Origin: an archaeon UBA543 | GTDB lineage: Archaea > Undinarchaeota > Undinarchaeia > Undinarchaeales > UBA543 | NCBI GenBank assembly: GCA_002502135.1 | Contig: DAPM01000017.1 | Location: 5,548 to 69,547 of the forward strand | DNA: 64,000 bases | Direction of reading: 5' to 3' | In this document: positions 26,119 to 48,888 of the stretch, in pieces | How positions within the stretch are numbered: the first letter of the stretch is position 1 | How the letters are laid out: every line of letters begins with the position of its first letter | Translations under genes and position numbers: made by a program | Notes under the pieces: generated by a model | Told to the model about the DNA's origin: nothing | What the model saw: the letters and a program-made list of their open reading frames with translations, nothing else | Databases searched by the model: none

Positions 26119-26119
26119 A

Positions 26120-26773
26120 ATGGACATTTATATAGACACTGCAAATCTTGAAGAAATAAAAAACGCTGTTGATATGGGCATCATAGATGGGTGCACAACC
26201 AATCCAGCAATTGTTGCCAAAGAGGGATGTGAATTTGAAAGCAGGATGAAGGAAATCCTTGCACTTGTCAAAGGCCCTGTCAGCATTGAAGTTACTACAA
26301 TTGATGTTGACACAATGGTTGAAGAAGCTGTAAAGTATTCAAAATGGGGCGACAATGTTGTTGTCAAAATCCCTATGGATGCAAACGGGCTTCGCGCAAC
26401 AAAAATCCTAACGGAAAAAGGCATCAAAACTAATGTGACCTGTTGCATGAGCTCAACTCAGGCAGTTCTGGCTGCAAAAGCAGGAGCAACATACGTTTCT
26501 CTGTTCTACGGCAGAATCGCTGACATGGGTTATGATGCAATGTACGAACTTGCAGATGCTGTAAATATTTTTGAACATTCTGGATTTGAATCCAAGATTA
26601 TTGCAGGAAGCCTAAGATCTGTTGCTGATGTTATGACAGCAATCCGCGCAGGAGTGCACATAGTTACTGTTCCGCCTGCATCTCTTAACAAAATGTACGT
26701 TCACCCAAGAACAAAAGAAACTATCCAGGAATTCCTGGACTTCTGGGCTGACTACAAGAAAAAACATAAGTGA
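26120..26773 (+). CDS. Transaldolase / fructose-6-phosphate aldolase (short TalC/FSA type)
   Basis: 217 aa. Begins MDIYIDTANLEEIK with the Schiff-base-lysine region VVVKIP. Confidence 0.8.
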   Translation: MDIYIDTANLEEIKNAVDMGIIDGCTTNPAIVAKEGCEFESRMKEILALVKGPVSIEVTTIDVDTMVEEAVKYSKWGDNVVVKIPMDANGLRATKILTEKGIKTNVTCCMSSTQAVLAAKAGATYVSLFYGRIADMGYDAMYELADAVNIFEHSGFESKIIAGSLRSVADVMTAIRAGVHIVTVPPASLNKMYVHPRTKETIQEFLDFWADYKKKHK

Positions 26774-34091: not shown

Positions 34092-35373
34092 CAAATTAAT
34101 TGAAGAATCATACCTTTTGAATCGGGTTTTTGTATCTGATGATTTAGTAAAAGCTCTGGACAACCTATCTGCTCACACTGATGTTGAATTTAAGGATTAC
34201 AAATTCAAAACAGGCACTGATGTTAATGGTTTTGTAATTCCTAGCAAATGGAGTGTTGATGATGCAAAGATTTTGAAAGATGGTAAAGTTGTTTATGATG
34301 GAATGCAGCATGTTCTTTGTGTTATTGCAAATTCAGCAAGCTTTGAAGGAAAAGTTTCCAAAGAAGAGCTTGTAAAACATCTACACACTGCTCCAAAACA
34401 GCCAAAAGCAATTCCATTCCACTTCAGGCAGATGTACAGACCTTGGCAGGAAGATTGGGGATTCTGTATGCCACAGGAATTATTTGATTCTCTAGAAGAT
34501 GGCGAATATGAAGTTGTTCTAAAAACAAAATCAGAACCTGGAGAAATGGTAATGCGAGAATTCACTTTGCCTGGAAAATCAAAGGAAACAGTTCTTTTTG
34601 TTGCTCATATTGATCATCCAGGACTTTCAAATGATGATTTGTCTGGTTGTTCTGTCGGAATTGCGCTTTTAGAAGAGCTCAAGAAACTGAAAGATCGCAA
34701 ATACACTTACAAACTTCTGCTTACTCAGGAAATAATCGGCTCAGTTTTTTACTTGAATGCAATTAAACAAGCGAAAAAGGATCTGAAATATTCATTATTC
34801 ATTGAAATGTTCGGAAACAGTACAGATTTGGCTTTACAGAAGTCTTTTTCAGGAGAAACTGAAATTGACAAAGCCTGCGAATTAGTTCTGCAGGGAATAG
34901 TGAAAGAACCTGTAATAAAACCTTTTAGAGAGCATGTTGGCAACGATGAAATTGCTTTTGAAGCTCCTGGTTTTGAAATTCCAATGCCTTCAATTTCAAG
35001 ATGGCCTTATCCTGAATATCACACTAATCTGGAGAACATGGATTTGATTGATGAGGACAAATTGCAGGAAGCTTTGAAGTATTTGCTCGATGTTGTGAAT
35101 GTTTTGGAGAAAAATGCTATTGTCAAGAGAAAATTTGAAGGATTAGTTGGTCTTGCCAATCCAAAATACGATTTGTATATGGGTCCTGGTCAGATTCTGA
35201 GCACAAGCGAGAAAGGGGACAAGCTGAAATGTCTGTTCCAGTACAAAATGCCTCGTTATCTTGAAGGCGACAAAACTGTTTTGGACATAGCTCTAGAATT
35301 CGGACTTGATTTTAACTGGACTCACGATTATTTCTGTAAAATGGCTGAGAAAGATTTAGTTGAACTTCTTTAA
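34081..35373 (+). CDS. Zinc-aminopeptidase-fold (M28/DUF4910-like) protein
   Basis: Track ORF 34006; the likely start is MKISKLIEE at 34081, overlapping the radical-SAM stop. VAHIDHPGLSNDDLSGCSVGIALLEEL resembles the metal-binding core of M28-like domains. The assignment is tentative. Confidence 0.4.
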   Translation: MKISKLIEESYLLNRVFVSDDLVKALDNLSAHTDVEFKDYKFKTGTDVNGFVIPSKWSVDDAKILKDGKVVYDGMQHVLCVIANSASFEGKVSKEELVKHLHTAPKQPKAIPFHFRQMYRPWQEDWGFCMPQELFDSLEDGEYEVVLKTKSEPGEMVMREFTLPGKSKETVLFVAHIDHPGLSNDDLSGCSVGIALLEELKKLKDRKYTYKLLLTQEIIGSVFYLNAIKQAKKDLKYSLFIEMFGNSTDLALQKSFSGETEIDKACELVLQGIVKEPVIKPFREHVGNDEIAFEAPGFEIPMPSISRWPYPEYHTNLENMDLIDEDKLQEALKYLLDVVNVLEKNAIVKRKFEGLVGLANPKYDLYMGPGQILSTSEKGDKLKCLFQYKMPRYLEGDKTVLDIALEFGLDFNWTHDYFCKMAEKDLVELL

Positions 35374-38841: not shown

Positions 38842-40686
38842 TCACAGCATGTTTTCAATGATCTTTGCAACTTCTACTGCTGCTGGTTTTCCCTTCTGCT
38901 TTACATACTGTTTTGCAAGTTCTTTAGCTTCTTCCGTTTTTCCTGTTCTAAGTATTCTGTCAAGTGCCTCACTTAATTCTTGCCCTGTTTTAACAATTTC
39001 AACCATTCCTTCTTTCCTTTTCGGGAAACTTGAAAGCGGAGCATTCATTGTGTTAATATAAATCACTGGCTTGCCATAAGCCATTGCTTCAAGTGCTACA
39101 GTTGATTTTGTTGTTACAAGAGCTGTACAACCTGCAAGAAGTTCTAAAAGATGTTTTTTTGTCAGTATGTTATTACTCACCCCATGCTTTTTCAACAGAG
39201 TCTTGTAAAGTCGTTCACTTTCTGCAGGATGAGGTTTTGAAACCACTTGCAAATTCCTGTATTTCTTTATTGTGTTGTAGAAAATATCATATGGGTGATA
39301 TGATGCACTTTCGGGAACGCAAGTTCCTCCAAAAACAATTATTGGTCTTGTTCTGTCAAGCCCAAGTGCAGTTAGCACATTATTTACCTTTTCCATACTG
39401 AGCTCCTTATTCTCTTTTCCTTCTGGTTGACCAACTGCAAACAATCGAGTTCTACTCACACCACTTCTCACAAGAGTTTCTACTGAAGATTGACCATATA
39501 CTGCCATTCTATCTGCATTAACTGGAACTCCTTTTGGTCTTTGGTCAAGAAGACCGTACCGCATTACAAAAGTTTTCAAGTTCTTCTGTTTTGCAATTGC
39601 AAGCAGTGTGTTTGGATATCTGCTCCAGTCATCAACACCACACACAATCTCTGGTTTTTCAGTATCAAGAATTTTGTTGAACACTTCAATTCTGATTAAA
39701 GTTTCAATAAATCTCTCGTAGAACAGGAATGAAAATAGTTTTGAGCAAACCGGCCACAACCTGACTCCTTTGTACTCGAATTTTGTTTTGAAGTTTTCAT
39801 TTTTCTCCAATTTGTCCAGAATACCTTCTAGTTTTTTCTGCAAACCCTCAATTTTTCTTATAATTTCTTTGTCAGCATAGTCTTGGAATCGCTCATATCT
39901 TATTCCAGCTTTCTTGAATTCATCTGAAACTTCTTTTCTAGGATCAAGTCCAACACACACCCTGTCACAATTCTGCAATTCTCTAGCCCATGGCAGAACC
40001 TTGTCAGTTTCACAGTGATCGTAGAAGAACAGAGTCTTAGGATCTTTAGATTCTGTTGGTTTTGGGGTTCTATTCTTCAAGCCTTTCAAAATCTTGTCAG
40101 CATGTCGACCTGTGAACAATTTCACTCCTCGGTCTTTGTTCTCATTGATTTTTCCAATAACTTTCAAGCCCATTGACTTTGCAACAAGTGCAAACACTTT
40201 CTGGTGCATACTTGAATTATTGAAAATAACAACCTGCTCAATCTTTTCTTTTTTCAAAACTCTAAATGCCTCGTCAATTGTTTTTATAATTGGAACCAGA
40301 TAGAAGCGCCATACTTCTGCAACATTTAAATTCCAGAGCTTCAAGCCCCTGTACTTCATTATTGAATCAATTCCTGCAATTGTTGATTCCATTTCTCGCA
40401 TAAACTGATAAGTATTATTCCAAGTTTCGTCATCCAGGAACTGTTCTGTTACTTCTGAAAGGCAGATATGAATGATTTCCTGCCTCTCTAGTTCCTGACT
40501 TGTCATGTAGTCAAGAGCAATTATTGAAATATCCTTGTATTTTTTCTCCAGACTACTAAGTTTTTGGTGCAGTCTTTTGAACATTACATCACTTTCACAA
40601 TCCTTTACAAAATCATAAACACCCCGAAGTGGGTGCGAGAACGCCATTTTCTGAACATCAAGTATAACTGCAGTTTTTTTTATCAT
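38842..40686 (-). CDS. Large GT-B-like glycosyltransferase with a K-x-H-P motif (candidate CMP-ulosonic acid transferase)
   Basis: 614 aa. The C-terminal half PIIVFGGT...VVSKPHPAE...ALVTTKSTVALEAMAYGKPVI looks like a GT-B C-domain with an HP motif. Such motifs are seen in KpsC/KpsS-type and sialyltransferase families. Family placement is tentative. Confidence 0.4.
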   Translation of the reverse strand: MIKKTAVILDVQKMAFSHPLRGVYDFVKDCESDVMFKRLHQKLSSLEKKYKDISIIALDYMTSQELERQEIIHICLSEVTEQFLDDETWNNTYQFMREMESTIAGIDSIMKYRGLKLWNLNVAEVWRFYLVPIIKTIDEAFRVLKKEKIEQVVIFNNSSMHQKVFALVAKSMGLKVIGKINENKDRGVKLFTGRHADKILKGLKNRTPKPTESKDPKTLFFYDHCETDKVLPWARELQNCDRVCVGLDPRKEVSDEFKKAGIRYERFQDYADKEIIRKIEGLQKKLEGILDKLEKNENFKTKFEYKGVRLWPVCSKLFSFLFYERFIETLIRIEVFNKILDTEKPEIVCGVDDWSRYPNTLLAIAKQKNLKTFVMRYGLLDQRPKGVPVNADRMAVYGQSSVETLVRSGVSRTRLFAVGQPEGKENKELSMEKVNNVLTALGLDRTRPIIVFGGTCVPESASYHPYDIFYNTIKKYRNLQVVSKPHPAESERLYKTLLKKHGVSNNILTKKHLLELLAGCTALVTTKSTVALEAMAYGKPVIYINTMNAPLSSFPKRKEGMVEIVKTGQELSEALDRILRTGKTEEAKELAKQYVKQKGKPAAVEVAKIIENML

Positions 40687-41381
40687 TTCTTTTTCTTTAG
40701 GAAGTCACTTCTAACAGATCTGTGCTGCATAATGAAATATGCAAACCAATACAGGTTGCCTACAACAGCCAGGCCCCATAACACCAGGTAAAGCTGGTTT
40801 AGCAGAGCCCCAACAGCAATAATGTTAATGTGCCACTGCCTTGCATAGAAGAATAGATTGTACCATTTCCCAAACCCGCTAAATTTCTTTTTAACTACTT
40901 TGTGTGGGATTTGGTTCAAGGTATAAAATCTTGCTGTGACATAAAATACTGTGAAGAAGTAAAGGCTGGCAAGTCCGAGAATCCAGATGTGAGTTACTGG
41001 ATAAATTCTGTATGCGCCAATTGTAATTGCAATTATCAGAAGTGGATCGAGTATTAAGTCAAGTGCCGAATCAAGATATCCGCCGTAATAGCTGGATTCT
41101 TTCCTGCATCTTGCAAGTTCGCCATCACAAAGATCAAGAATGTATCCGAATTCAAGCAGAACAGCTCCCCAGATCAGACATTTCCAAACTCCTGTTGTGA
41201 AAAGAGCAGCTCCTGCCATGCAAAACAAGAAACCGATAACAGTAACCTGATTTCCAGTAAGCGAAGTATGATTGTAAAGGAATGGAGTTATCCTTCTTGA
41301 GATTTTCCTGTGAACCCAATGAGTTATTAACTGGTCATTCTCCCTGTCAGGAACATCTTTTGTAGTGATTTTCTTTTTCAT
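40683..41381 (-). CDS. CDP-alcohol phosphatidyltransferase-family membrane enzyme
   Basis: 232 aa. DLCDGELARCRKESSYYGGYLDSALDLILD matches the D-G-x2-A-R-x8-G-x3-D-x3-D signature. Confidence 0.75.
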   Translation of the reverse strand: MKKKITTKDVPDRENDQLITHWVHRKISRRITPFLYNHTSLTGNQVTVIGFLFCMAGAALFTTGVWKCLIWGAVLLEFGYILDLCDGELARCRKESSYYGGYLDSALDLILDPLLIIAITIGAYRIYPVTHIWILGLASLYFFTVFYVTARFYTLNQIPHKVVKKKFSGFGKWYNLFFYARQWHINIIAVGALLNQLYLVLWGLAVVGNLYWFAYFIMQHRSVRSDFLKKKK

Positions 41382-42097
41382 TTGAGTAGTTTAGGATAAA
41401 TTTCGTTTTTAGCTTTTTCCAAATCATCTGGAAAGTCGATTTCAATCCACGGAAGTTTGTCAGTTGGCACAATTTTTATTGGAAATCCTTTTTCTGCAAG
41501 ATTTGTCAGTGCTGAAGTGTCGTAATCCATGAATCTGCCTTCTGCAAGTAGTGATTCAATTTCTGGAATTAGTTTTTTCCAGCCTTCTGAACTGAATTTG
41601 ATAATTCCAGTCCATTCTCCGCCTGCTTGGTCAAGTGGAATTGCCTTACTGGATTCAATTAAGTGTCCTTTCTCATCCAATTTGACTTTCATTGACTCTT
41701 CATCAAAAACTTCAGTGTCTGTAACAAGAACAATATCTCCCTCAGCGTCAATCGCTTTTTTTATTAGCTCATCGTGGTAGAGCAGGTCGCTGTGCAAGTA
41801 AAGAAACGGCTCGTCTCCTACTGCTTCTTTTCCGAACCAGAGCGAAGCCATGTCATTTGTAGTTTCGTAAAATGGATTGAACAGGTGAGTTACAGAATCT
41901 CCAAGTTTCTCATGAATTTTCTCTTTTTTCCAGCCACTAACAATTGCAATATCTGTAATTCCGTGCTTTTTCAGATTTTCAAGAGTGAGATCGAGAAGTG
42001 TTTTTCCTTCAGCAACTTCTGTAAGGCATTTCGGAATCTCAGAATCATTCCCGTATAACCGGGTTCCGCGCCCTGCTGCAACAATTACTGCTTTCAT
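41378..42097 (-). CDS. Nucleotidyltransferase (NTP_transf_3-like; candidate phosphonate- or alcohol-phosphate cytidylyltransferase)
   Basis: 239 aa. The N-terminus is MKAVIVAAGRGTRL. It overlaps both neighbours by 4 nt, consistent with an operon. Confidence 0.7.
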   Translation of the reverse strand: MKAVIVAAGRGTRLYGNDSEIPKCLTEVAEGKTLLDLTLENLKKHGITDIAIVSGWKKEKIHEKLGDSVTHLFNPFYETTNDMASLWFGKEAVGDEPFLYLHSDLLYHDELIKKAIDAEGDIVLVTDTEVFDEESMKVKLDEKGHLIESSKAIPLDQAGGEWTGIIKFSSEGWKKLIPEIESLLAEGRFMDYDTSALTNLAEKGFPIKIVPTDKLPWIEIDFPDDLEKAKNEIYPKLLK

Positions 42098-43047
42098 TCT
42101 AGTATTTTCTTGAAAATGTTAATCAAGTCCTCCTTTGAAACTTCTTTTGGATTATTATCAAGATGCCTTTTGTCTGGGAACACAACTTCTGCAAGTTCTT
42201 CAGCTGTTCCTGTAATCTCCACATTTCCTAGTCCTGTTTCTGTAATAATGCTTTTAATCTCTTGTGAAAGCGCAGGATCTGTTCCATTAAAGTCCATTGC
42301 GTGCGGAAGAACAATTGCAATTGCCTCTCCATGTGGAATTCCCTGGTTTGAGAGTGGATAAGAGAGTGCATGCGCAAGAGTTGTTCCAGAATTGCCGAAA
42401 GCTTTTCCAGCAACCAGACTTGCGTAAGACATCTGCTCTTTTGCCAATTCGTCACCTTCAATTGCTTTCTTGAGATTAATTTTGATTATGTCAATTGCTT
42501 CTTTTGCCAGTGTCTTGGTTGTTTCATCACTCTTTTTTGATTCAGAACATTCAACTGCATGAGCTAGAGCATCAATTCCTGTGCAGGCTGCGAGCTTCTT
42601 CGGCATTGTAAATGTGAGCTCAGGATCCACTAGCGCAACATCAGGAAGAAGGTTTTCGTTTTTAATTCCCTTTTTCTTGCCTTCCACTTTCAGGACAGCA
42701 TCATGGGTTACTTCACTTCCAGTTCCTGCAGTTGTTGGGATCATAATTTTCTTTGCATTTAGCTCCATTGCAGCGTATTTTGCAACATCCAAAACAGACC
42801 CTCCACCTAGTCCAATAATTGTGTCAGCCCCAAGTGCTTTAACTTTCTCAACAGTTTCCATACTTGGTTCTGGTTCTACATCTGAGAAGATTTTGATTTC
42901 ACCTAGAAGTGTTTTGATTTTGTCAACTGGTCCGCGTGTTAGCATACCTTTAGAAGTAACTAGAAGAACAGCGCCTTCTGTAAATTCAGGCAGTTTGCTG
43001 ATTGCTCCTCTTTCGAATATTATGTGCTCCGGCAGTATCAATTCCAT
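42094..43047 (-). CDS. Iron-containing (group III) alcohol dehydrogenase superfamily; candidate phosphonoacetaldehyde reductase
   Basis: 317 aa. The GLGGGSVLDVAKYAA NAD-binding motif and the His-rich metal-site region (AHAVEC...) are present. Confidence 0.65.
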   Translation of the reverse strand: MELILPEHIIFERGAISKLPEFTEGAVLLVTSKGMLTRGPVDKIKTLLGEIKIFSDVEPEPSMETVEKVKALGADTIIGLGGGSVLDVAKYAAMELNAKKIMIPTTAGTGSEVTHDAVLKVEGKKKGIKNENLLPDVALVDPELTFTMPKKLAACTGIDALAHAVECSESKKSDETTKTLAKEAIDIIKINLKKAIEGDELAKEQMSYASLVAGKAFGNSGTTLAHALSYPLSNQGIPHGEAIAIVLPHAMDFNGTDPALSQEIKSIITETGLGNVEITGTAEELAEVVFPDKRHLDNNPKEVSKEDLINIFKKILE

Positions 43048-43152
43048 ACAAAACAGGTGTTTGAATTGGGTATTTTAAGGTTATGCAAGTTTATAGCACC
43101 GAATAGTTTATCACAACCTTAATAACCACTTTTCAGAACACAATTCTTACAA

Positions 43153-43629
43153 ATGGTTAATACAAGTGAGTTTCTCGCTAAACTTTCAGAACTTGGATAC
43201 AATTTCTACGCTGGAGTACCTTGCTCTATTTTCAAAACTCTAATCAGCCAGCTAGAATCTGGAGATAATTACACACCAGTTACTCGAGAGGATGAAGGTC
43301 TTGGATTATGCACAGGGGCTCAGCTAGCTGGAAAGAAGCCTGTAATGGTTATGCAGAATTCCGGTCTTGGAAATTCAATTAATGTTCTGTCTTCACTGCT
43401 TCTACTCTACAAAATCCCGACACTCATGCTGATCAGCTGGAGGGGCGAGACAAAAGAGGATGCTCCTGAGCATTGGGTAATGGGAGAATCAATGACTAAA
43501 CTGCTTGATTCAATTGGTGTTCCGTATTTTATTTTTGAAACACTTGAGGATATGGAAAAAGCTAATGCAAAACTGACTGAAACAAACCAGCCAGTTGCAG
43601 TTATTTTCAAAAAGGGGTCACTTGAATGA
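43153..43629 (+). CDS. Phosphonopyruvate (or sulfopyruvate) decarboxylase, alpha subunit (TPP enzyme, PYR domain)
   Basis: 158 aa. The pattern is like split Ppd/ComD N-terminal halves. Its stop overlaps the start of the beta subunit. Confidence 0.7.
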   Translation: MVNTSEFLAKLSELGYNFYAGVPCSIFKTLISQLESGDNYTPVTREDEGLGLCTGAQLAGKKPVMVMQNSGLGNSINVLSSLLLLYKIPTLMLISWRGETKEDAPEHWVMGESMTKLLDSIGVPYFIFETLEDMEKANAKLTETNQPVAVIFKKGSLE

Positions 43630-44174
43630 AAACACAAGAAGCAGTTGCAAAAATAGTATCTCTTTTGAAAGGGGATGAAGTTATTATTTCTGCTAATGGT
43701 TTTATTTCACGAGAACTTCACGACACTGGCGACAATGAGCGGAATTTCTATATGATTGGCTCAATGGGAATGGGTGCATCAATTGGAGCTGGAATTGCAC
43801 TGAATTCTCAAAAGAAAGTGGTTGTTCTGGATGGCGACGGGAATGTTCTGATGAATCTGGGTGCGCTGGCTACAATTGGCAATAAAAAACCTGAGAATTT
43901 CCTTCATATTGTAATTGACAATGGTGTTTACGAATCAACTGGCTCTCAGAAAACTGTTTCTGCAACAATTGAGCTGGAAAATGTTGCAAAATCAGCTGGA
44001 TACACTACTTGTGTTAAAGTTTCTAATCTTGAAGAACTGGAATCAGCAATTGTCAGCGAGTACACTGGTTCGGTTTTCATTCGAGTAATAGTTGAAGCAG
44101 GCAAAAGAGAAGTTGGCAGAGTGCAGGCAAGCCCGGAAGAAATTGCAAACCGGCTCAGAACTTACCTTCCATAA
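43626..44174 (+). CDS. Phosphonopyruvate (or sulfopyruvate) decarboxylase, beta subunit (TPP-binding)
   Basis: 182 aa. LDGDGNVLMNLGALATIG...IVIDNG is the G-D-G...N-N TPP-binding motif. Confidence 0.75.
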   Translation: MKTQEAVAKIVSLLKGDEVIISANGFISRELHDTGDNERNFYMIGSMGMGASIGAGIALNSQKKVVVLDGDGNVLMNLGALATIGNKKPENFLHIVIDNGVYESTGSQKTVSATIELENVAKSAGYTTCVKVSNLEELESAIVSEYTGSVFIRVIVEAGKREVGRVQASPEEIANRLRTYLP

Positions 44175-44207
44175 CTCTTTTAACCTAAAATCAGGACGTT
44201 CAATTCA

Positions 44208-45830
44208 ATGACCAAGGCTAAAAAGCTCAGAGAACTGTTTGAAAGCAAGGATCTTGTACGGATCGTTGGAGCTCACAATGGACTAACTGCAAAACTTGTA
44301 GAGCTGAACGGTTTTGATGGTGTATGGGCTTCTGGTTTAGAAGTTTCAGCATCCAACGCTGTTCCTGATGCTAATATTCTCACAATGTCTGATTATCTTG
44401 CAGCAGCAGCCAGCATGAATGATGCTACAAGCATTCCAGTTGTTGTGGACTGCGATACTGGATACGGCAATTCAATGAATGTAATCCGAATGGTGAAGAA
44501 ATTCGAGGATGCCGGAATTGCTGCTGTTTGCATGGAGGACAAGAAATTCCCAAAAACCAACAGTTTGCTTGAAGGCGGGAAACAGGAGCTGGCTCCAATT
44601 GCTGAGTTTGTTGGCAAGATAATGGCTGCTAAGAATGCTCAGGAGTCAGATGATTTTATGGTTATTGCTCGTGTTGAGGCTTTGATTGCTGGCTGGGGAC
44701 AGGAAGAAGCACTCAAAAGAGCTCGCGCTTATGCTGATGCAGGCGCTGATGCAATTTTTATTCACTCAAAAAAGTCTGATCCTAAAGAAATTGAGGATTT
44801 CCTCAAAGCTTGGGACAATTACAAACCAGTTGTGTTGGTTCCAACAAATTATCCTAGCTTCACAGAAGCTCAGATGAAGCAGTATGGTGTGAAACTTGTT
44901 ATTTATGCTAATCACGGAATCCGGACAATTGTAAAACACGTTAATGAAACTCTTGCAGAAATTAAGGAAAAAGGGATTACTGAAATTGATTCTAAAATCG
45001 CTAGCGTGAAAGACCTTTTTGCTTTGCAGGAAATGGATAAATTCAAGGAAGATCAGGACAAGTTTGTCAGAACAAAAGAATCTGTAAAAGCAATTATTCC
45101 AGCTGCTGGGGACAGAAGCGTTGAACCTAGTTTGAAAGAACTTCTACAGGACAGACCACTTACAATGATTGATGTTAATGGAAAGTCAATTCTGCAGAGA
45201 AGTGTTGAGAATCTGAAGCAGTGCGGTGTTGATGACATCAAAGTTATTGGCGGTTACAAGGCAGAGCATGTTGTTGCTGATGATATTAATCTAGTTGTGA
45301 ATGAGGCATATGCTGACGGGCATATTATGGATTCAATTTCAAAAGCTGGAGAGGAATATGCTGAAAAGAATCTGATAATCTACTCTGACATTATTTTCGA
45401 AACAGAAATTCTTGATAAATTGCTAAAAACTGACAAGGATATTACACTTGTAATTGACAGTTCTGTTAGAAAGTCTGAAGTCAGGTCTGATATTGATCTT
45501 GTAATTGCTGAAAAGCCTCCTTTGGACGGCGAGAGAGTGATTAATGTTAATAAAGAGAATAAAATTCTGAACATTGGAAAGGATTTGGACAGAGAGAAGG
45601 CAAAACACGAGTTTGTTGGAATAGTTCTGCTTTCAAAAATTGGAATGCAGAAGCTGATGCAGGTTTACAAGGATGCTGGAGATCAGAAAATGGGTCTCTG
45701 CACTGCGATTCAGAAGCTTATTGATTCTGGTGAGGCTGTTAATTCACTTGAAATCAGCAGAGGGTGGAGTGAAATTCACGATTTTGAAGATTATAAGAAA
45801 GTTTCTGAGATGTTGGCTACTGAAAATTAA
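44208..45830 (+). CDS. Phosphoenolpyruvate phosphomutase (PepM) fused to a C-terminal nucleotidyltransferase domain
   Basis: 540 aa. The N-terminal ~290 aa belong to the ICL/PEP-mutase superfamily and carry the PepM-diagnostic EDKKFPKTNS (EDKX5NS). The C-terminal ~230 aa are AIIPAAGDRS...IDVNGKSIL, an NTP-transferase fold. Confidence 0.85.
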   Translation: MTKAKKLRELFESKDLVRIVGAHNGLTAKLVELNGFDGVWASGLEVSASNAVPDANILTMSDYLAAAASMNDATSIPVVVDCDTGYGNSMNVIRMVKKFEDAGIAAVCMEDKKFPKTNSLLEGGKQELAPIAEFVGKIMAAKNAQESDDFMVIARVEALIAGWGQEEALKRARAYADAGADAIFIHSKKSDPKEIEDFLKAWDNYKPVVLVPTNYPSFTEAQMKQYGVKLVIYANHGIRTIVKHVNETLAEIKEKGITEIDSKIASVKDLFALQEMDKFKEDQDKFVRTKESVKAIIPAAGDRSVEPSLKELLQDRPLTMIDVNGKSILQRSVENLKQCGVDDIKVIGGYKAEHVVADDINLVVNEAYADGHIMDSISKAGEEYAEKNLIIYSDIIFETEILDKLLKTDKDITLVIDSSVRKSEVRSDIDLVIAEKPPLDGERVINVNKENKILNIGKDLDREKAKHEFVGIVLLSKIGMQKLMQVYKDAGDQKMGLCTAIQKLIDSGEAVNSLEISRGWSEIHDFEDYKKVSEMLATEN

Positions 45831-46972
45831 AGCAATTTCTCAGCTGCTTCAACAATTTTTCTAGGTTCTAATTCAACAAGGCACTTCCTGTCCTTGCAAT
45901 TAAAATAATTAGCAGTAAAAGAATCAACACAAGGAATACAAGCCAAGTCTTTTTTCACAACAATAACTTTCTCACCATAAGGTTTTGCTTTTTCAGAATC
46001 TGTAGGACCGAAAATACTAACTACTGGAATTCCAAGTGCTGCTGCAAGATGCCCAGGCCCAGTATCTGTGCTAATGAAAATATCACAATTCTTAATCAAA
46101 GCAGCTGTTTCTGGAATAGTTTTGTCAAAGAACATCAACGGTTTCTCTTGCATCATTGCGTGAATACTCTTGCCAGCATGAGCTTCTTCTGGCCCACCAA
46201 CTATCATAATCTTTGTATTATGCTTCTTGGCAAGTTCAGTACATGCTTCTGCAAAGCCATGCTGAGTCCACTGTTTGTATTTGGTTTCATGAACTGAGCC
46301 GGTGTGCACGCCAATAAGTTTCTGACCTTCACCAAGTCCTCTGGATTTCAGAAGGTTTCGAGCACCATATACTTTAGCGTCTGGCAATTCAAGTTTAATA
46401 CTTCTGTCAATTTCTTTTTCACCAAGCATTTTAGCAATATCCAAATTCACATCAACACAGTGCTTGCTAGTGCTTTTAACAACAATATTTGAGAAAACTC
46501 CTGATTTGAAGAACCCGACGTTCTGCTCAACTCCAATCATTTTCTTTGCTCCAATGAATTTTGTAGCTACCCCGCTGAACTTTCCGCTTGGGTATGTTAG
46601 AATTGAAAGATCGAATTTTCTTTTTCCAAGTTCTTTCATGAATTTTCTTTTCTTGAAAATCCCTCTATGCTCTTCTGGATTGAAGAAAACAATATCGTCC
46701 ACTAGTTTGTTTGCCTGCATTAATTCAACAACTGGTTTGTATGAAGCAAGCAGAGTGATTTTTGCAGTTGGAAACCTTTTTCTTAAAGTTTTGAGCAAAG
46801 GAATTGAAAAAATCATATTTCCCAAGCCCATCAGGTTTACAACAACAATATTCTGAAAATTCTCATCAACTGGTCTGCTTCTTGCAAATAACAAATCCCA
46901 CGGAATCAAGAATTTCAAGGCTAGTATGTTCTCAAACATTCTAACATGCAAAGGAATTTTTATTTTAGACAT
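45827..46972 (-). CDS. GT9 family heptosyltransferase-like glycosyltransferase
   Basis: 381 aa. IVVVNLMGLGNMIFSIPLLKTLRKRFP is the GT9 N-terminal motif. C-terminal HTGS...GGPEE... GT-B half is also present. Confidence 0.7.
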   Translation of the reverse strand: MSKIKIPLHVRMFENILALKFLIPWDLLFARSRPVDENFQNIVVVNLMGLGNMIFSIPLLKTLRKRFPTAKITLLASYKPVVELMQANKLVDDIVFFNPEEHRGIFKKRKFMKELGKRKFDLSILTYPSGKFSGVATKFIGAKKMIGVEQNVGFFKSGVFSNIVVKSTSKHCVDVNLDIAKMLGEKEIDRSIKLELPDAKVYGARNLLKSRGLGEGQKLIGVHTGSVHETKYKQWTQHGFAEACTELAKKHNTKIMIVGGPEEAHAGKSIHAMMQEKPLMFFDKTIPETAALIKNCDIFISTDTGPGHLAAALGIPVVSIFGPTDSEKAKPYGEKVIVVKKDLACIPCVDSFTANYFNCKDRKCLVELEPRKIVEAAEKLL

Positions 46973-46973
46973 T

Positions 46974-47432
46974 TTAAAGTTTTGAAATTATGTCTGTTGT
47001 TGAATCACAATCAACTAACTTCAATATTTCCAGTCTTCCGCCATATTCTTCTAAAGCTTTTTTCTCAGGAACTTGTTCTGGGGTATAATCTCCGCCTTTA
47101 GCTTGGATTCCTGGTTTCAGCTCGCGGATAAGCTGTTCTGGAGTGTTTTCATCATAAATCACAACATAATCCACGCTTTCTAGGGAATCAAGCACTTCAG
47201 CTCGCTGATCCTGCTGAATTAATGGTCGTTTCTCACCTTTCAACTTTTTAACTGATGCATCGCTGTTCAGTCCAACAATCAGAACATCTCCGAGTTCTCT
47301 GGCTTCTTTCAAATAGCGAATATGACCAATATGCAGAATATCAAAACAACCATTAGTGAAAACTACTGTTTTCCCTGCTGTTTTCAGCTGGTCTACAGTC
47401 TGTTTTGCATCTTCTCTTGACAAAACACTCAT
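46974..47432 (-). CDS. D-beta-D-heptose-1-phosphate adenylyltransferase (HldE domain II / RfaE2-like)
   Basis: 152 aa. TNGCFDILHIGHIRYL...IVGLNSD...KGGDY...CDSTTDIISK is collinear with the E. coli HldE C-terminal domain. Confidence 0.8.
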   Translation of the reverse strand: MSVLSREDAKQTVDQLKTAGKTVVFTNGCFDILHIGHIRYLKEARELGDVLIVGLNSDASVKKLKGEKRPLIQQDQRAEVLDSLESVDYVVIYDENTPEQLIRELKPGIQAKGGDYTPEQVPEKKALEEYGGRLEILKLVDCDSTTDIISKL

Positions 47433-48349
47433 TTTAGAGCCTCCCTCAGGTCGATTTTGTGAACGCGCCTCTTCCCAATAACAAAACCAGCTGCTTTGTT
47501 AGCCAGTTTTGCAGATTCAAGATCATTTATTCCAGATGCAAGAGCAACAGCAAGCACTGCAGCAACAGTATCTCCAGCTCCTGTAACATCATAAACCTCT
47601 TTAGCTTCTACTGGAATTTGTTCTGCAGTTCCATTTGAAACAAGCATCATTCCTTCTGCTCCCATTGTCATCAAAACTTTGCAGTTCAGCTTTTCTGAAA
47701 GTGTTTTTCCGATTTCTTCAGAAGTGCTGTTCTCAGAATTAACAATTTCTCTGGATTCTTTTAAGTTCGGAGTAATAATTTCAACTCCTTTGAAAATTTC
47801 AGCATTAACTGGTTTTGGATCCACAAGCACTTTCTTTCCAGTTTGCTTTGCAGCTTCCACAATTTTATCAGTCATAACACCTTTTGCATAATCTGAAAGA
47901 ACAATTATGCTGGCGTCTCCTGCTTTTTCTGAAATAGCAGATATGATTTTATCCTCATCCTCTTCACTGATTTTGTCTTTTTTTTCAGTATCAATTCTGA
48001 GCAACTGCTCTAACTCACTAGTTACAATCCTTTTCTTAACAGTTGTAGGACGGTTTTTGTCAATTATAATTGAGTCAGCCGTTATTCCGCTGGATTTGAT
48101 AAGTTCTGCAAGCTCTTTGCCTTCTGAATCATCACCAATAACACCAACCAGCTCTGCTTTTGCTCCAAGCTCAACAATATTTTTTGCAACATTTGCAGCT
48201 CCGCCAAGAACATCCTTTATTTTCTCTTTGTTAAAAACCGGTACAGGAGCTTCTGGTGAAATCCTACTTGCATCTCCAATAACATATCTGTCCAGCATTA
48301 AGTCTCCAATAATAAGTACTTTGACTGATTCTGGTTTCAGCTCGCTCAT
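47429..48349 (-). CDS. D-beta-D-heptose-7-phosphate kinase (HldE domain I / RfaE1-like, PfkB family)
   Basis: 306 aa. IIGDLMLDRYVIGDASRISPEAPVPV...GGAANVAKN matches HldE domain I. C-terminal DVTGAGDT is the PfkB motif. Confidence 0.75.
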   Translation of the reverse strand: MSELKPESVKVLIIGDLMLDRYVIGDASRISPEAPVPVFNKEKIKDVLGGAANVAKNIVELGAKAELVGVIGDDSEGKELAELIKSSGITADSIIIDKNRPTTVKKRIVTSELEQLLRIDTEKKDKISEEDEDKIISAISEKAGDASIIVLSDYAKGVMTDKIVEAAKQTGKKVLVDPKPVNAEIFKGVEIITPNLKESREIVNSENSTSEEIGKTLSEKLNCKVLMTMGAEGMMLVSNGTAEQIPVEAKEVYDVTGAGDTVAAVLAVALASGINDLESAKLANKAAGFVIGKRRVHKIDLREALK

Positions 48350-48888
48350 TCAAGCGCCTCGCAAATTTCATGAAGTATGAAAGCGTGCATTTCTTGAATT
48401 CGTGGAACCTGATCTGATTGCACCTGAATACCAAGATCGCATTCTCCAGCAAGTGTTCCGACATTTCCTGTCAATGCAATTGTCTTTATTCCAAGTGATT
48501 TTGCTTTCTGAGCAGCTTTAACAACATTCTCAGAAGTTCCGCTTGTGCTAATCACAATTAAAACATCTCCTTGCTTGCCTAGAGCTTCAACCTGCCTCTC
48601 AAAAACTTTGTCATAACCATAATCATTGGAAATTGCTGTCATAACAGCAGTGTTAGCATTAAGAGAAATTCCTTCAAGGGGCTTCCTGTCGCTTTTGTAC
48701 TTGCAAACCAGTTCTGCAATAAAATGGTTAGCATCAGAAGCAGATCCGCCATTACCGCAAGCAAGAACTTTGTGCCCAGCCAGGTGGCACTCTTTAATTG
48801 CATTTACTGCATTCTGCACCTGATCTTTCAGGCCAATAGCGCTTCGCGCCAGGCTTGCTAAATTTTCTGCTCGCTCTTCAAATGTCAT
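48346..48888 (-). CDS. gmhA: Sedoheptulose-7-phosphate isomerase GmhA (SIS), copy 2
   Basis: 180 aa. LACGNGGSASDANHF...ISTSGTSENV. Confidence 0.8.
   Translation of the reverse strand: MTFEERAENLASLARSAIGLKDQVQNAVNAIKECHLAGHKVLACGNGGSASDANHFIAELVCKYKSDRKPLEGISLNANTAVMTAISNDYGYDKVFERQVEALGKQGDVLIVISTSGTSENVVKAAQKAKSLGIKTIALTGNVGTLAGECDLGIQVQSDQVPRIQEMHAFILHEICEALE

What the first reader, a model, noticed from the sequence alone, without database searches (positions are those of the whole stretch)
40683..45830. Complete phosphonate biosynthesis-and-transfer module embedded in an archaeal N-glycosylation island
Seven adjacent genes make up the module. They are a PEP mutase with the PepM-specific EDKX5NS motif, a split TPP-dependent phosphonopyruvate decarboxylase (alpha and beta subunits), an iron-containing ADH, a stand-alone G-x-G-x-R nucleotidyltransferase and a CDP-alcohol phosphotransferase. 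The three minus-strand genes overlap by 4 nt, operon-style. From established pathways, PepM plus Ppd give phosphonoacetaldehyde and an Fe-ADH reduces it to 2-hydroxyethylphosphonate (FomC/PhpC-type step). Cytidylyltransferases activate 2-HEP or 2-AEP as CMP-conjugates (Fom1 cytidylyltransferase domain, PntC). The neighbouring CDP-alcohol phosphotransferase would then move the phosphonyl head group onto an alcohol acceptor such as a glycan or lipid. No MpnS-like oxygenase is present, so methylphosphonate is not the product. The cluster sits among agl genes, so the likely product is a phosphonate-decorated N-glycan/S-layer glycan or a phosphonolipid. Such products are essentially uncharacterised in archaea.
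Basis: partly seen in the sequence, partly recalled or inferred. Interest (0 to 1): 0.88.

Follow-up and report, generated by a model that had tools for sequence, protein, structure and literature searches.

The report
Archaeal hydroxyethylphosphonate surface-decoration gene cluster
A tiny marine DPANN archaeon (Undinarchaeales relative) carries a complete gene set for making a carbon-phosphorus compound (2-hydroxyethylphosphonate), activating it with CTP and attaching it to a cell-surface molecule; clusters of this kind are already well known from bacterial genomes, so this is a new host for a known system.

Summary
Positions 40683-45830 contain six ORFs, not seven. The minus-strand operon continues by another ATGA overlap into a 614-aa GT-B protein (38842-40686), which is kept in the module of two sister genomes.

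PepM passes its equivalog cutoff and has EDKKFPKTNS. The split TPP decarboxylase scores like PepM-linked split Ppds from bacteria. The Fe-ADH's closest relatives sit behind Ppd in PepM operons. The stand-alone NT has the GXGTR-X8-PK signature, and its best solved relative is PntC. The membrane protein has the full CDP-alcohol phosphotransferase motif.

No AEP transaminase, MpnS or HEPD is present, so CMP-2-HEP is the likely donor. The acceptor is unknown.

The host is an Undinarchaeales-like DPANN archaeon from Tara mesopelagic water. A Dehalococcoidales bacterium has the same six genes in one collinear operon, and PepM-NT + PntC + CDP-OH clusters are described in the literature. Verdict: new member of a known kind.

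Two added points:
- The fused NT-like domain lacks the catalytic Arg/Lys signature.
- Two sister genomes insert a B12-radical-SAM gene, and the CDP-OH transferase co-varies with it.

The parts
44208..45071 (+). PEP mutase (PepM/Ppm) domain, aa 1 to about 288 of a 540-aa fusion protein
   Evidence: It scores 321.1 bits on TIGR02320 against a cutoff of 319.55, and 202 bits on Pfam PEP_mutase. The motif EDKKFPKTNS is at aa 110. The best solved relatives are PEP mutases 5UNC (327 bits) and 1M1B (293 bits), ahead of phosphonopyruvate hydrolase 2DUA (273 bits). In those alignments the Mg-binding, gating-loop, Arg and His positions line up.
45081..45830 (+). C-terminal PF12804 nucleotidyltransferase-like domain fused to PepM, with a non-canonical active-site signature
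   Evidence: It scores 35.6 bits on Pfam NTP_transf_3, and LicC 1JYK matches aa 292-401. An alignment with PntC, LicC and NT2 shows IPAAGDRSVEPSL...DRPL in place of GXG(T/S)R...PK. None of 184 PepM-NT homologs in which the domain could be located has GxGxR, and the aligned Lys position is L/V/I/A in all EDKx5NS-type homologs. Many residues of the domain are nevertheless invariant.
43153..43629 (+). Phosphonopyruvate decarboxylase alpha subunit (TPP pyrimidine-binding half)
   Evidence: NCBIfam gives 144.9 bits for ComD (below the 147.95 cutoff) and 119.5 bits for the Ppd model. PepM-adjacent split homologs in bacteria give the same score pattern. The gene overlaps PpdB by ATGA. It is 80-92% identical in the sister modules.
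43626..44174 (+). Phosphonopyruvate decarboxylase beta subunit (TPP diphosphate-binding half)
   Evidence: It scores 191.6 bits on the Ppd model TIGR03297 and 189.3 bits on the ComE model, the latter below its 221.5 cutoff. The GDG-X26-NG TPP motif is present. The best solved relative is 9IZ3, 'putative phosphonopyruvate decarboxylase beta subunit', at 121.8 bits. In 69 of the 83 fetched PepM-NT loci (80 independent ones plus three copies of the window's own contig) a homolog lies beside PepM.
43048..43152 (.). A 105-nt AT-rich divergent intergenic region between the Fe-ADH operon and the ppd-pepM operon
   Evidence: Read directly from the sequence. A promoter function is inferred only from its position.
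42094..43047 (-). Iron-containing alcohol dehydrogenase, a candidate phosphonoacetaldehyde reductase (PhpC/FomC-type step)
   Evidence: It scores 118.9 bits on Fe-ADH and 103.8 bits on ADH_Fe_C. The GGGS motif and the D159/H163/H226/H239 metal ligands are present. NCBIfam scores for AdhE, lactaldehyde-reductase and Phn_Fe-ADH models are 146-193 bits, against 45.6 bits for G1P dehydrogenase. The closest homologs (280-333 bits) directly follow Ppd in PepM operons L011, L012, L013, L019 and L023.
41378..42097 (-). Stand-alone LicC/PntC-like nucleotidyltransferase (NT2), the canonical cytidylyltransferase candidate
   Evidence: The signature GRGTRLYGNDSEIPK matches GXG(T/S)RX8PK. The best solved relative is Treponema denticola PntC-AEPT 6PD1 (54.7 bits, aligned over the full length), followed by LicC. 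The closest homologs (139-209 bits) lie in PepM loci L004, L013, L015 and L050.
40683..41381 (-). Integral-membrane CDP-alcohol phosphotransferase, the candidate CMP-phosphonate:acceptor phosphonyl transferase
   Evidence: It scores 45.2 bits on PF01066 against a cutoff of 22. The motif D83-x2-DG-x2-AR-x8-G-x3-D-x3-D is complete, and there are several hydrophobic spans. The best solved relatives are AF2299 (65.8 bits) and IPCT/DIPPS (48.7 bits). CDP-OH homologs lie within 10 kb of PepM in 31 of 80 independent loci. Its sequence co-varies with the presence of a B12-rSAM gene in sister modules.
38842..40686 (-). A 614-aa GT-B-fold transferase translationally coupled to the CDP-OH transferase; a conserved seventh gene of the module with an unknown donor (CMP-linked sugar or phosphonate)
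   Evidence: It overlaps the CDP-OH gene by ATGA. Homologs at 46-52% identity hold the same position in L088 and L095. Pfam and NCBIfam hits are weak: Glycos_transf_1, Epimerase_2, Glyphos_transf, TIGR04396 and the BFO_1060 GT family. The AF2 model (pLDDT 67) matches GT-B enzymes. It belongs to a full-length family with 152 representatives at E<1e-30. Distant homologs of about 600 aa directly follow PepM-NT in L042 and L057.

Best explanation
This is a chromosomal cell-surface phosphonate-tailoring module of an Undinarchaeales-like DPANN archaeon.

Proposed steps:
1. PepM converts PEP to phosphonopyruvate.
2. The split TPP enzyme PpdAB decarboxylates it to phosphonoacetaldehyde, which pulls the unfavourable mutase equilibrium.
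3. The Fe-ADH reduces the aldehyde to 2-hydroxyethylphosphonate (HEP).
4. The stand-alone PntC/LicC-type nucleotidyltransferase condenses HEP with CTP to give CMP-HEP.
5. The DIPPS/AF2299-like CDP-alcohol phosphotransferase transfers the hydroxyethylphosphonyl group from CMP-HEP to a hydroxyl of an acceptor and releases CMP.

The acceptor is most likely a membrane-anchored (dolichol-linked) glycan precursor made by the surrounding island. The translationally coupled GT-B protein acts on the same glycan.

What is shown by sequence and comparison: the identity of the enzyme families, their motifs, their conserved linkage, and the absence of transaminase, MpnS or HEPD genes in the window.

What is inferred: all substrates, CTP as the nucleotide, the donor role of CMP-HEP for the CDP-OH enzyme, and the acceptor.

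The PepM-fused NT-like domain lacks the catalytic Arg/Lys signature, so it probably does not carry out the standard cytidylyl transfer. Its role is open.
For: Enzyme families and motifs are established.

Conserved linkage:
- The same module occurs in two related archaeal genomes, with synthesis genes 74-92% identical.
- A Dehalococcoidales MAG (L013) has the collinear order PepM-NT, PpdA, PpdB, Fe-ADH (333 bits), NT (165 bits), CDP-OH (58 bits).
- Among 80 independent PepM-NT loci, 49 have a stand-alone NT, 31 have a CDP-OH transferase and 10 have the two adjacent.

Co-variation: the two sister modules that insert a B12-rSAM between NT and CDP-OH have CDP-OH proteins 74% identical to each other. 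Both are only 46-48% identical to the window's rSAM-less version, while the synthesis genes stay at 74-92%. This fits a CDP-OH enzyme that reads the phosphonate donor.

No PF00266 transaminase and no MpnS- or HEPD-sized unassigned ORF is in the window.

Literature:
- CMP activation of AEP by PntC and of HEP by Fom1, and Ppm-fused plus separate NTs in one cluster (PMC6697681).
- The cluster family with Ppm-PntC, a second PntC and CDP-OH genes, and PhpC-type HEP formation (PMC8942020).

The glycan context is shown.
Against: - No chemistry has been tested.
- The CDP-OH transferase is no more similar to those in bacterial PepM clusters (58-62 bits) than to AF2299/DIPPS (65.8 bits). There is therefore no evidence for a dedicated phosphonate-specific clade.
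- The stand-alone NT and the CDP-OH protein both hit the IPCT/DIPPS model best, although at 67-70 bits against a cutoff of 580.
- CDP-alcohol phosphotransferases classically make lipids or soluble phosphodiesters, not glycan decorations.
- The GT-B family is not strictly PepM-linked (L093) and may simply be a nonulosonic-acid or amino-sugar transferase.
- The Fe-ADH does not reach the cutoff of the phosphonate-cluster ADH model TIGR03405 (145.7 against 423.7).
Confidence: 0.65

Rival explanations
1. The biosynthesis and CMP activation are the same, but the acceptor is a membrane lipid such as archaeol or a diether/diacyl-glycerol-type alcohol, possibly a lipid scavenged from a host. The product would be a phosphonolipid made by a Kennedy-type head-group transfer.
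For: CDP-alcohol phosphotransferases are integral-membrane lipid enzymes in most characterised cases. The protein also hits archaetidylinositol-phosphate synthase (67 bits) and PIP synthase models. The analogous bacterial clusters are classified as putative phosphonolipid clusters (PMC8942020).
Against: The closest solved relatives (AF2299, IPCT/DIPPS) are of the type that uses a soluble CDP-alcohol. The gene is translationally coupled to a GT-B transferase and embedded in a 45-kb glycan island that contains no lipid-synthesis genes. L013 follows the CDP-OH gene with a GT4 glycosyltransferase.
Confidence: 0.22
2. The stand-alone NT and the CDP-OH transferase, possibly with the ADH, form an independent IPCT/DIPPS-like or CDP-polyol unit. 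It would make a phosphodiester (a polyol-phosphate decoration or solute) unrelated to the phosphonate, and the PepM-fused NT-like domain would be the true phosphonate activator.
For: Both proteins hit the bifunctional IPCT/DIPPS model NF041135 best, and together they cover it end to end. In the PDB, AF2299 and IPCT/DIPPS are the best hits for the membrane protein.
Against: The scores are 67-70 bits against a cutoff of 580. No inositol-1-phosphate synthase or glycerol-phosphate gene is in the window. The ADH is not G1PDH-like (45.6 bits), and its orthologs follow Ppd in PepM operons. The NT's best solved relative is PntC. The NT and CDP-OH pair recurs in PepM loci across phyla. The fused NT-like domain lacks the catalytic Arg/Lys signature. 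The CDP-OH protein co-varies with a tailoring rSAM gene inserted between NT and CDP-OH.
Confidence: 0.08
3. HEP is only an intermediate. Enzymes encoded elsewhere in the genome convert it further (MpnS to methylphosphonate, HEPD to hydroxymethylphosphonate), or the cluster makes a small diffusible phosphonate rather than a surface decoration.
For: Only 64 kb of the genome is visible. HEP is an intermediate in many pathways (PMC8942020, PMC8931226).
Against: No such gene lies in the window or in the 20-kb neighbourhoods of the two sister modules. The module is wired into transferase and glycan genes. DPANN genomes are small, and pathway genes here are tightly clustered.
Confidence: 0.05

Closest known systems
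Bacterial phosphonyl-tailoring (Pnt) clusters of the 'Burkholderiales_CDP-OH' / Group 1 phosphonolipid type (Rice et al. 2019, PMC6697681; Li & Horsman 2022, PMC8942020)
   Same: Both have Ppm fused to a PF12804 NT domain, Ppd, a second stand-alone PntC-type cytidylyltransferase, and a CDP-alcohol phosphotransferase gene. Both are predicted to decorate the cell surface. The products of the bacterial clusters are also uncharacterised.
   Different: The bacterial type uses AEP transaminase, often with an alpha-KG oxygenase, to make (1-hydroxy-)AEP. Here an Fe-ADH replaces them, giving the HEP branch. Ppd is split. The host is a DPANN archaeon, and the cluster is embedded in an N-glycosylation island and coupled to a GT-B transferase.
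Early fosfomycin pathway of Streptomyces (Fom1 CyTase-PepM, Fom2 Ppd, FomC Fe-ADH, Fom3 B12-rSAM acting on CMP-HEP)
   Same: The chemistry from PEP through PnPy and PnAA to HEP and then CMP-HEP is the same, including a nucleotidyltransferase domain fused to PepM. The sister genomes L088 and L095 even carry a B12-rSAM directly after the NT gene.
   Different: The Fom1 CyTase belongs to PF01467 and is N-terminal, whereas here the fused domain belongs to PF12804, is C-terminal and is non-canonical. The window's operon has no B12-rSAM and no FomD or Fom4. CMP-HEP is proposed here as a transfer donor, not as a transient intermediate.
Nitrosopumilus maritimus / marine pepM-ppd-pdh(-mpnS) clusters making methylphosphonate esters (as summarised in PMC8931226, PMC9381506)
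   Same: Both are marine archaeal hosts with PepM, Ppd and Fe-ADH leading to HEP. In both, neighbouring nucleotidyltransferase and glycosyltransferase genes suggest esterification to a surface polymer. Both are prevalent in the mesopelagic.
   Different: There is no MpnS here, so HEP itself is the likely head group. A CDP-alcohol phosphotransferase is present. The host is a DPANN archaeon rather than a Thaumarchaeote.
IPCT/DIPPS and AF2299 (archaeal CDP-alcohol phosphotransferases with a soluble CDP-alcohol donor)
   Same: These are the best sequence matches for the membrane protein, the full DxxDGxxAR...G...D...D motif is shared, and there is an NT plus transferase pairing.
   Different: Scores are far below family cutoffs (70 against 580). 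The two activities are on separate proteins. There are no inositol-phosphate genes. The linkage to PepM implies a phosphonate rather than a phosphate-ester donor.

Membership tests
PEP mutase (PepM/Ppm) | The equivalog HMM cutoff is reached and the EDKX5NS gating-loop motif distinguishes it from other isocitrate-lyase superfamily members | tested here: met
   TIGR02320 scores 321.1 bits against a cutoff of 319.55. EDKKFPKTNS is at aa 110. Solved PepMs score above phosphonopyruvate hydrolase.
PEP mutase (PepM/Ppm) | Catalytic conversion of PEP to phosphonopyruvate | not testable with these tools
   This needs an enzyme assay.
Phosphonopyruvate decarboxylase (Ppd/AepY/Fom2) | A TPP-dependent decarboxylase with the GDG...N motif, encoded next to PepM | tested here: met
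   The GDG-X26-NG motif is in the beta subunit. The pair lies immediately upstream of pepM, and the arrangement is conserved in L088, L095 and L013. The best solved relative is an annotated split Ppd beta subunit, 9IZ3.
Phosphonopyruvate decarboxylase (Ppd/AepY/Fom2) | Separation from sulfopyruvate decarboxylase ComDE by HMM or phylogeny | tested here: inconclusive
   The alpha subunit scores 144.9 bits on ComD (cutoff 147.95) and 119.5 bits on Ppd. The beta subunit scores 191.6 bits on Ppd and 189.3 bits on ComE (cutoff 221.5). PepM-adjacent split enzymes from bacteria give the same pattern, so the HMMs do not discriminate. No reference ComDE sequences were available for a tree.
PhpC/FomC-type phosphonoacetaldehyde reductase (Fe-ADH) | Fe-ADH fold with the NAD(P) GGGS motif and Asp/His3 metal ligands | tested here: met
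   Pfam Fe-ADH and ADH_Fe_C both match. GGGS is at aa 81, and the ligands are D159, H163, H226 and H239.
PhpC/FomC-type phosphonoacetaldehyde reductase (Fe-ADH) | Membership of a phosphonate-cluster ADH lineage | tested here: inconclusive
   TIGR03405 (PsrA) scores 145.7 bits against a cutoff of 423.7, so that cutoff is not met. However, the closest homologs (280-333 bits) directly follow Ppd in five PepM operons.
PntC/LicC-type phosphonate cytidylyltransferase | The GXG(T/S)R-X4-8-PK signature (Arg15 and Lys25 of Tde-PntC) | tested here: met
   This row concerns the stand-alone NT at 41378-42097. It reads GRGTRLYGNDSEIPK, and its best solved relative is PntC 6PD1.
PntC/LicC-type phosphonate cytidylyltransferase | The same signature in the PepM-fused PF12804 domain | tested here: not met
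   The fused domain reads AAGDRSVEPSL...DRPL, with no GxGxR and no Lys at the PK position. The same holds in all EDKx5NS-type PepM-NT homologs examined.
PntC/LicC-type phosphonate cytidylyltransferase | Preference for a phosphonate (HEP or AEP) and for CTP | not testable with these tools
   This needs enzyme kinetics.
CDP-alcohol phosphotransferase | The D(x)2DG(x)2AR(x)8G(x)3D(x)3D motif in a polytopic membrane protein, with a Pfam score above the gathering cutoff | tested here: met
   DLCDGELARCRKESSYYGGYLDSALD spans aa 83-108, and there are hydrophobic spans. PF01066 scores 45.2 bits against a cutoff of 22.
Burkholderiales_CDP-OH / Group 1 phosphonolipid cluster family | A seven-gene core that includes AEP transaminase (PF00266) and an alpha-KG/Fe(II) oxygenase | tested here: not met
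   No PF00266 gene and no oxygenase gene is in the island. An Fe-ADH occupies the post-Ppd step instead. The cluster shares the logic of this family but is not a member.
Fosfomycin (Fom) pathway | Fom3-type B12-rSAM, FomD and Fom4 present alongside PepM, Ppd and FomC | tested here: not met
   The window's operon has no B12-rSAM, since the NT and CDP-OH genes overlap by ATGA. No Fom4- or FomD-like genes are present. Sister loci do carry an in-operon B12-rSAM.
Methylphosphonate pathway (MpnS) | Presence of MpnS or an HEPD-type oxygenase | tested here: not met
   No ORF of suitable size in the window lacks another assignment.
IPCT/DIPPS | The equivalog cutoff of NF041135 is reached and inositol-phosphate genes are present | tested here: not met
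   The scores are 66.9 and 70.4 bits against a cutoff of 580. No inositol-1-phosphate synthase gene was found in the window.

The most novel reading that the evidence does not exclude
The module makes an HEP-esterified N-glycan or S-layer glycan in a host-dependent DPANN archaeon, and the phosphonate head group is a strain-variable surface character. Sister genomes keep the PepM/Ppd/ADH/NT core at 74-92% identity but swap in a B12-radical-SAM gene (with or without an additional methyltransferase), together with a matching, strongly diverged CDP-alcohol phosphotransferase. That suggests cassette-like diversification of the phosphonate (HEP versus a C-methylated, Fom3-like product).

In addition, the NT-like domain fused to PepM in about a third of all Ppm proteins may not be a cytidylyltransferase at all. 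It lacks the Arg/Lys signature yet is highly conserved, so it could have an unrecognised role, for example regulatory, scaffolding or phosphonyl transfer.
Probability: 0.3. Interest if true: 0.65.

Novelty: new member of a known kind. Interest (0 to 1): 0.4.

Why it matters
HEP and methylphosphonate esters of polysaccharides are a large, poorly sourced part of marine dissolved organic phosphorus, and they fuel aerobic methane production. Knowing which organisms make HEP esters matters for that budget.

A genome-reduced mesopelagic DPANN archaeon that devotes seven genes to a phosphonate surface decoration adds an unexpected producer group. It also suggests the decoration has a role at the symbiont-host or virus-cell interface.

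Two further points give experimentalists concrete handles on cluster classes that have been known from genomes for a decade but never chemically resolved:
- The comparative pattern: a conserved synthesis core, with variable tailoring and transfer genes.
- The non-canonical fused NT-like domain.

The cluster type itself, however, is not new.

Tried and rejected
- **ComDE reading.** HMM scores are ambiguous, but PepM-linked bacterial split enzymes score identically, both ComD and ComE cutoffs are missed, and the pair is fixed next to pepM in three archaeal genomes. I rejected it as unlikely. A proper tree could not be built because no reference ComDE sequences could be retrieved.
- **Context of the nearest non-Undinarchaeales PpdB homologs.** The Nitrospina gracilis copy is not next to pepM. 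Another sits in a Ppd-AEPT-PntC-PMT_2 row. The result is mixed and only mildly informative.
- **G1P-dehydrogenase / CDP-glycerol reading of the ADH.** Rejected: 45.6 bits against 146-193 bits for aldehyde-reductase-type models.
- **The NT-B12-rSAM fusion at 19698-22013 as the missing Fom3-like enzyme of this module.** Its best NCBIfam hit is the Sden_1168 family (304.6 bits), and relatives sit in PepM loci L015, L031 and L050. However, the sister genome has both this fusion and a separate in-operon rSAM that is only 25% identical to it. The fusion is also embedded in GDP-heptose genes. I therefore do not count it as part of the module.
- **GT-B protein as a TagF-like phosphonyl transferase.** The structure model (pLDDT 67) and Foldseek give only generic GT-B matches such as epimerase, LpxB and polysialyltransferase. 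A homolog in L093 is not PepM-linked. The donor is left undecided.
- **GTDB genome scan.** This species' PepM is not among the representatives. The best hit is 55% identical, from a Woesearchaeota MAG.
- **Rfam scan of the window.** It returned nothing.
- **Allen & Wang 2014 on SD_1168.** The paper is not held in the library.

Full report
**What is in the sequence**

The interval 40683-45830 holds six ORFs arranged as two divergent operons.

On the minus strand:
- An Fe-ADH at 42094-43047 (317 aa).
- A nucleotidyltransferase at 41378-42097 (239 aa), called NT2 below.
- A CDP-alcohol phosphotransferase at 40683-41381 (232 aa).

On the plus strand, after a 105-nt AT-rich spacer:
- A TPP-enzyme alpha half at 43153-43629.
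- A TPP-enzyme beta half at 43626-44174.
- A 540-aa PEP mutase at 44208-45830.

All junctions quoted as 4-nt overlaps are ATGA start/stop overlaps. Pfam and NCBIfam confirm every family.

First, the 540-aa protein is a fusion of PepM (aa 1 to about 288) with a C-terminal PF12804 NT-like domain, so the 'seven genes' are really six ORFs with seven domains. Second, the ATGA chain on the minus strand continues into a 614-aa protein at 38842-40686. After a 52-nt gap come NeuB, a CMP-sugar synthetase, a GT2 and an epimerase.

**Host and context**

The window encodes type II (archaeal) GAPDH, an archaeal TIM, PGK, TruD and two tandem STT3/AglB-like proteins. Exact copies of its proteins come from Tara Oceans station 039, mesopelagic, 0.1-0.22 um fraction. 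A member of the same 90% cluster as one window protein is annotated Candidatus Undinarchaeales. Contigs of two Undinarchaeales MAGs are syntenic with the window at 77-81% nucleotide identity. The host is therefore a DPANN archaeon related to, but not conspecific with, those MAGs.

From about 13.4 to 63 kb the window is one large surface-glycan island. It contains:
- an O-methyltransferase;
- two STT3 genes;
- two LPG_synthase_TM proteins;
- a GDP-heptose-type gene set;
- an ADP-heptose set with a GT9 heptosyltransferase;
- a flippase;
- two PMT_2 proteins;
- several GT2 genes;
- nonulosonic-acid genes;
- UDP-glucose dehydrogenase;
- PGM/PMM;
- an MraY/AglH-like transferase.

The 'N-glycosylation island' context holds.

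**Enzyme by enzyme**

*PepM.* It reaches the equivalog cutoff of TIGR02320 (321.1 against 319.55) and carries EDKKFPKTNS. It aligns best with solved PEP mutases (5UNC at 327 bits, 1M1B at 293 bits), ahead of phosphonopyruvate hydrolase (273 bits). The metal-binding Asp residues, the gating loop, the Arg and the His are in register.

*Decarboxylase halves.* They score almost equally on the Ppd and ComD/ComE models and miss both ComDE cutoffs. This ambiguity is a property of the models. Split decarboxylases that sit directly behind pepM in Dehalococcoidales, Chloroflexia and Sorangium loci give the same pattern, and one even passes the ComD cutoff. The best solved relative of the beta half is deposited as a split Ppd beta subunit (9IZ3). 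The GDG-X26-NG TPP motif is present. In 69 of the 83 fetched PepM-NT loci (80 independent ones plus three copies of the window's own contig) a homolog lies beside pepM. I could not build a tree with reference ComDE sequences, so this point rests on context.

*Fe-ADH.* It has the GGGS motif and the Asp/His3 metal ligands. It resembles aldehyde-reducing Fe-ADHs (146-193 bits) far more than G1P dehydrogenase (45.6 bits). Its nearest relatives among the fetched loci (280-333 bits) are the genes that directly follow Ppd in five PepM operons.

*NT2.* It has the canonical GXG(T/S)R-X8-PK signature. Its best solved relative is the phosphonate-specific cytidylyltransferase PntC of Treponema denticola (6PD1, aligned over its whole length), followed by LicC.

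*Membrane protein.* It has the complete CDP-alcohol phosphotransferase motif and several hydrophobic spans. It is closest to AF2299 and IPCT/DIPPS.

*What is absent.* The window holds no AEP transaminase (PF00266) and no MpnS- or HEPD-like candidate. Its only aminotransferase is a class I/II enzyme about 30 kb away, beside glycolysis genes.

**Comparative evidence**

The PepM-NT fusion is very common. It returned 2943 hits in the protein search and 581 loci in GTDB representatives. The nearest relatives outside the lineage, at 52-58% identity, include Woesearchaeota, Nanoarchaeota, Omnitrophota and Planctomycetota.

Among 80 independent loci:
- 49 carry a stand-alone NT;
- 31 carry a CDP-OH transferase within 10 kb;
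- 10 have the NT and the CDP-OH transferase adjacent;
- 16 carry an Fe-ADH.

One Dehalococcoidales MAG (L013) has exactly the window's gene set in a single collinear operon: PepM-NT, PpdA, PpdB, Fe-ADH, NT, CDP-OH. A GT4 and a methyltransferase follow.

Two related archaeal genomes carry the module in the same place, next to GT9 and the ADP-heptose genes (L088/L089 and L095). Between the window and these genomes the identities fall into three groups:
- The synthesis genes and NT2 are 74-92% identical.
- The GT-B protein is conserved in position, but only 46-52% identical among all three.
- The CDP-OH transferase is 74% identical between the two sister genomes, yet only 46-48% identical to the window's.

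Both sister genomes have a B12-radical-SAM gene inserted between NT2 and the CDP-OH gene (87.5% identical to each other), and one also has a class I methyltransferase. The window has none, because NT2 and the CDP-OH gene overlap by ATGA.

So the transferase co-varies with a tailoring enzyme placed exactly where Fom3 acts in fosfomycin biosynthesis, namely on CMP-HEP (PMC9204698, PMC8158854). This is indirect but specific support for the CDP-OH enzyme reading the activated phosphonate. It also supports unmodified HEP as the window's head group.

**The fused NT-like domain**

I aligned it with NT2, Tde-PntC, LicC and NTs from other PepM loci. The fused domain has a 3-residue insertion and reads AAGDRSVEPSL...DRPL. 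It lacks both the Arg of GXG(T/S)R and the Lys of PK.

None of 184 PepM-NT homologs in which the domain could be located has GxGxR. In all EDKx5NS-type homologs the Lys position is L, V, I or A.

Rice et al. showed that Ala substitution at Arg15, Lys25 and Lys153 of Tde-PntC leaves less than 10% activity. They characterised only stand-alone or AEPT-fused PntCs, and noted that clusters often have both a ppm-fused NT and a separate NT (PMC6697681).

The fused domain nevertheless has many invariant residues, so it is under selection. I infer that NT2 is the working cytidylyltransferase and that the fused domain has a modified or different role. This is an inference from sequence alone.

**The 614-aa protein**

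It belongs to a family of full-length proteins of about 600-670 aa (152 representatives at E<1e-30). Hits to GT-B, TagF-like and 'surface carbohydrate biosynthesis' models are weak. An AlphaFold model of moderate confidence (pLDDT 67) matches GT-B enzymes in general, including UDP-GlcNAc 2-epimerases, LpxB and a CDP-bound polysialyltransferase.

Distant relatives directly follow PepM-NT in two bacterial loci. Another relative, however, sits among amino-sugar genes with no pepM nearby. I count it as part of the operon, but I cannot say whether its donor is a CMP-sugar (NeuB and a CMP-sugar synthetase follow it) or the CMP-phosphonate.

**Mechanism proposed**

1. PEP is converted to phosphonopyruvate by PepM.
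2. Phosphonopyruvate is decarboxylated to phosphonoacetaldehyde by PpdAB.
3. Phosphonoacetaldehyde is reduced to HEP by the Fe-ADH.
4. HEP is activated to CMP-HEP by NT2.
5. The hydroxyethylphosphonyl group is transferred to an acceptor hydroxyl with release of CMP, by the CDP-OH transferase.

Steps 1 to 3 follow established enzymology of these families (PMC8942020). Step 4 follows PntC and Fom1 precedent (PMC6697681). Step 5 is inferred by analogy with CDP-alcohol phosphotransferases and from the co-variation above.

Given the island, the translational coupling to a GT-B enzyme and a GT4 in the bacterial counterpart, I favour a membrane-anchored glycan precursor as acceptor. I rate a lipid acceptor (rival 1) at about 0.2.

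**Comparison with what is known, and novelty**

- Ppm-fused NTs occur in about 60% of Ppm proteins, 33% of them with PF12804 (PMC6697681).
- A cluster family with Ppm-PntC, Ppd, a second PntC and CDP-OH genes makes up 36% of the RefSeq ppm neighbourhoods surveyed, and the HEP branch accounts for 8.5% (PMC8942020).
- pepM/aepY/phpC are enriched in the mesopelagic, with glycosyltransferase, 'choline kinase' (LicC-type) and similar neighbours in both bacteria and archaea (PMC9381506).
- A PepM-NT gene next to a CDP-alcohol phosphotransferase has been noted in Borg elements of Methanoperedens (bioRxiv 10.1101/2024.11.05.622173).
- I found no paper in the held library that links Undinarchaeota or DPANN to phosphonate synthesis.

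The finding is therefore a new member (new host lineage, HEP branch with a CDP-OH transferase, N-glycan island context) of a known kind of system. Products of this kind of system remain chemically uncharacterised everywhere.

I score interest at 0.4. The identification is solid and ecologically relevant, but a specialist would not find it surprising. The more novel threads are the degenerate fused NT-like domain and the cassette-like head-group variation among sister genomes.

Noticed in passing
window 19698-22013 (+): A 771-aa fusion of a sugar-1-phosphate nucleotidyltransferase (HddC/MurU/GlmU-like, about 105-121 bits) with a B12-binding radical SAM domain. The best NCBIfam hit of the radical SAM domain is the Sden_1168 'P-methyltransferase' family (304.6 bits, cutoff 575). 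It sits at the head of a GDP-heptose-type gene set (GHMP kinase, SDR, Gfo/Idh/MocA, GmhA-like SIS, GmhB-like HAD, transaldolase/FSA; 22047-26773). Sden_1168-like rSAMs scoring 236-297 bits lie inside PepM loci L015, L031 and L050. The sister genome, however, has both this fusion and a separate in-operon rSAM, so a link to the phosphonate module is doubtful. It may methylate a nucleotide-heptose.
   Followed up: partly
window 22047-26773 and 45827-48888: A DPANN archaeon carries two separate heptose-activation gene sets. One is GDP-heptose-like (HddA/GmhA/GmhB-type). The other is an ADP-heptose set (GmhA, and split RfaE kinase and adenylyltransferase) with a GT9 heptosyltransferase that abuts pepM. 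GT9 and ADP-heptose are classically bacterial LPS-core features.
   Followed up: no
L088/L089 5536-8483 and L095 5068-8004 (sister Undinarchaeales-like genomes): The sister modules insert a B12-radical-SAM gene (484-499 aa, best hit HpnJ-like at 94 bits) between the NT and CDP-OH genes. L088 also inserts a class I methyltransferase. The CDP-OH transferase is 74% identical between the two rSAM-bearing genomes but only 46-48% identical to the window's, while the synthesis genes are 74-92% identical. This suggests head-group diversification.
   Followed up: yes
L036, L039-L044, L047, L048, L051, L053, L054, L058, L059, L071 and other loci (distant PepM-NT homologs): 45 of 199 PepM-NT homologs (at most about 43% identical; Myxococcota, Acidobacteriota, Nitrospirota, Planctomycetota) carry EDN[VI]FPKRCS in place of the PepM-diagnostic EDKX5NS. 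They keep 'RPK' in the fused NT domain, and many still sit next to Ppd-like genes. By the usual motif filter they would not be counted as PepM.
   Followed up: partly
L004 10001-21646 (Woesearchaeota MAG ARS1419, marine): Another DPANN phosphonate cluster with a different branch: PepM-NT, fused Ppd, asparagine synthase, aldehyde dehydrogenase (a PhnY-like step towards phosphonoacetate), PntC-like NT, CDP-OH transferase, rSAM/SPASM, and two B12-rSAMs.
   Followed up: partly
window 14153-18697 (+): Two tandem, divergent STT3/AglB-like oligosaccharyltransferase paralogs (760 and 739 aa; 93 and 84 bits on the archaeosortase-associated STT3 model). They are conserved in the related MAGs.
   Followed up: no
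L084-L087 (related Undinarchaeales contigs): All four related contigs end within about 3-4.5 kb downstream of the NT-rSAM gene, inside the glycan island. In MAG GCA_964567575.1 the phosphonate module is on a different contig. This is consistent with a hypervariable island that breaks assemblies.
   Followed up: no
window 33060-34091 (+) and 34006-35373 (+): A radical SAM/SPASM protein lies next to a DUF4910/DUF2172/M28-like protein inside the glycan island. The rSAM/SPASM has a 44% identical homolog directly downstream of the sister module's GT-B gene (L088 1824-2804), and another rSAM/SPASM follows the CDP-OH gene in L004.
   Followed up: no
window 4424-4511 (-): ARAGORN calls a tRNA-Leu(CAG) here, overlapped by a probably spurious 240-aa ORF (3772-4494). 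The Rfam gathering-threshold scan of the window reported no hit at all, not even this tRNA.
   Followed up: no
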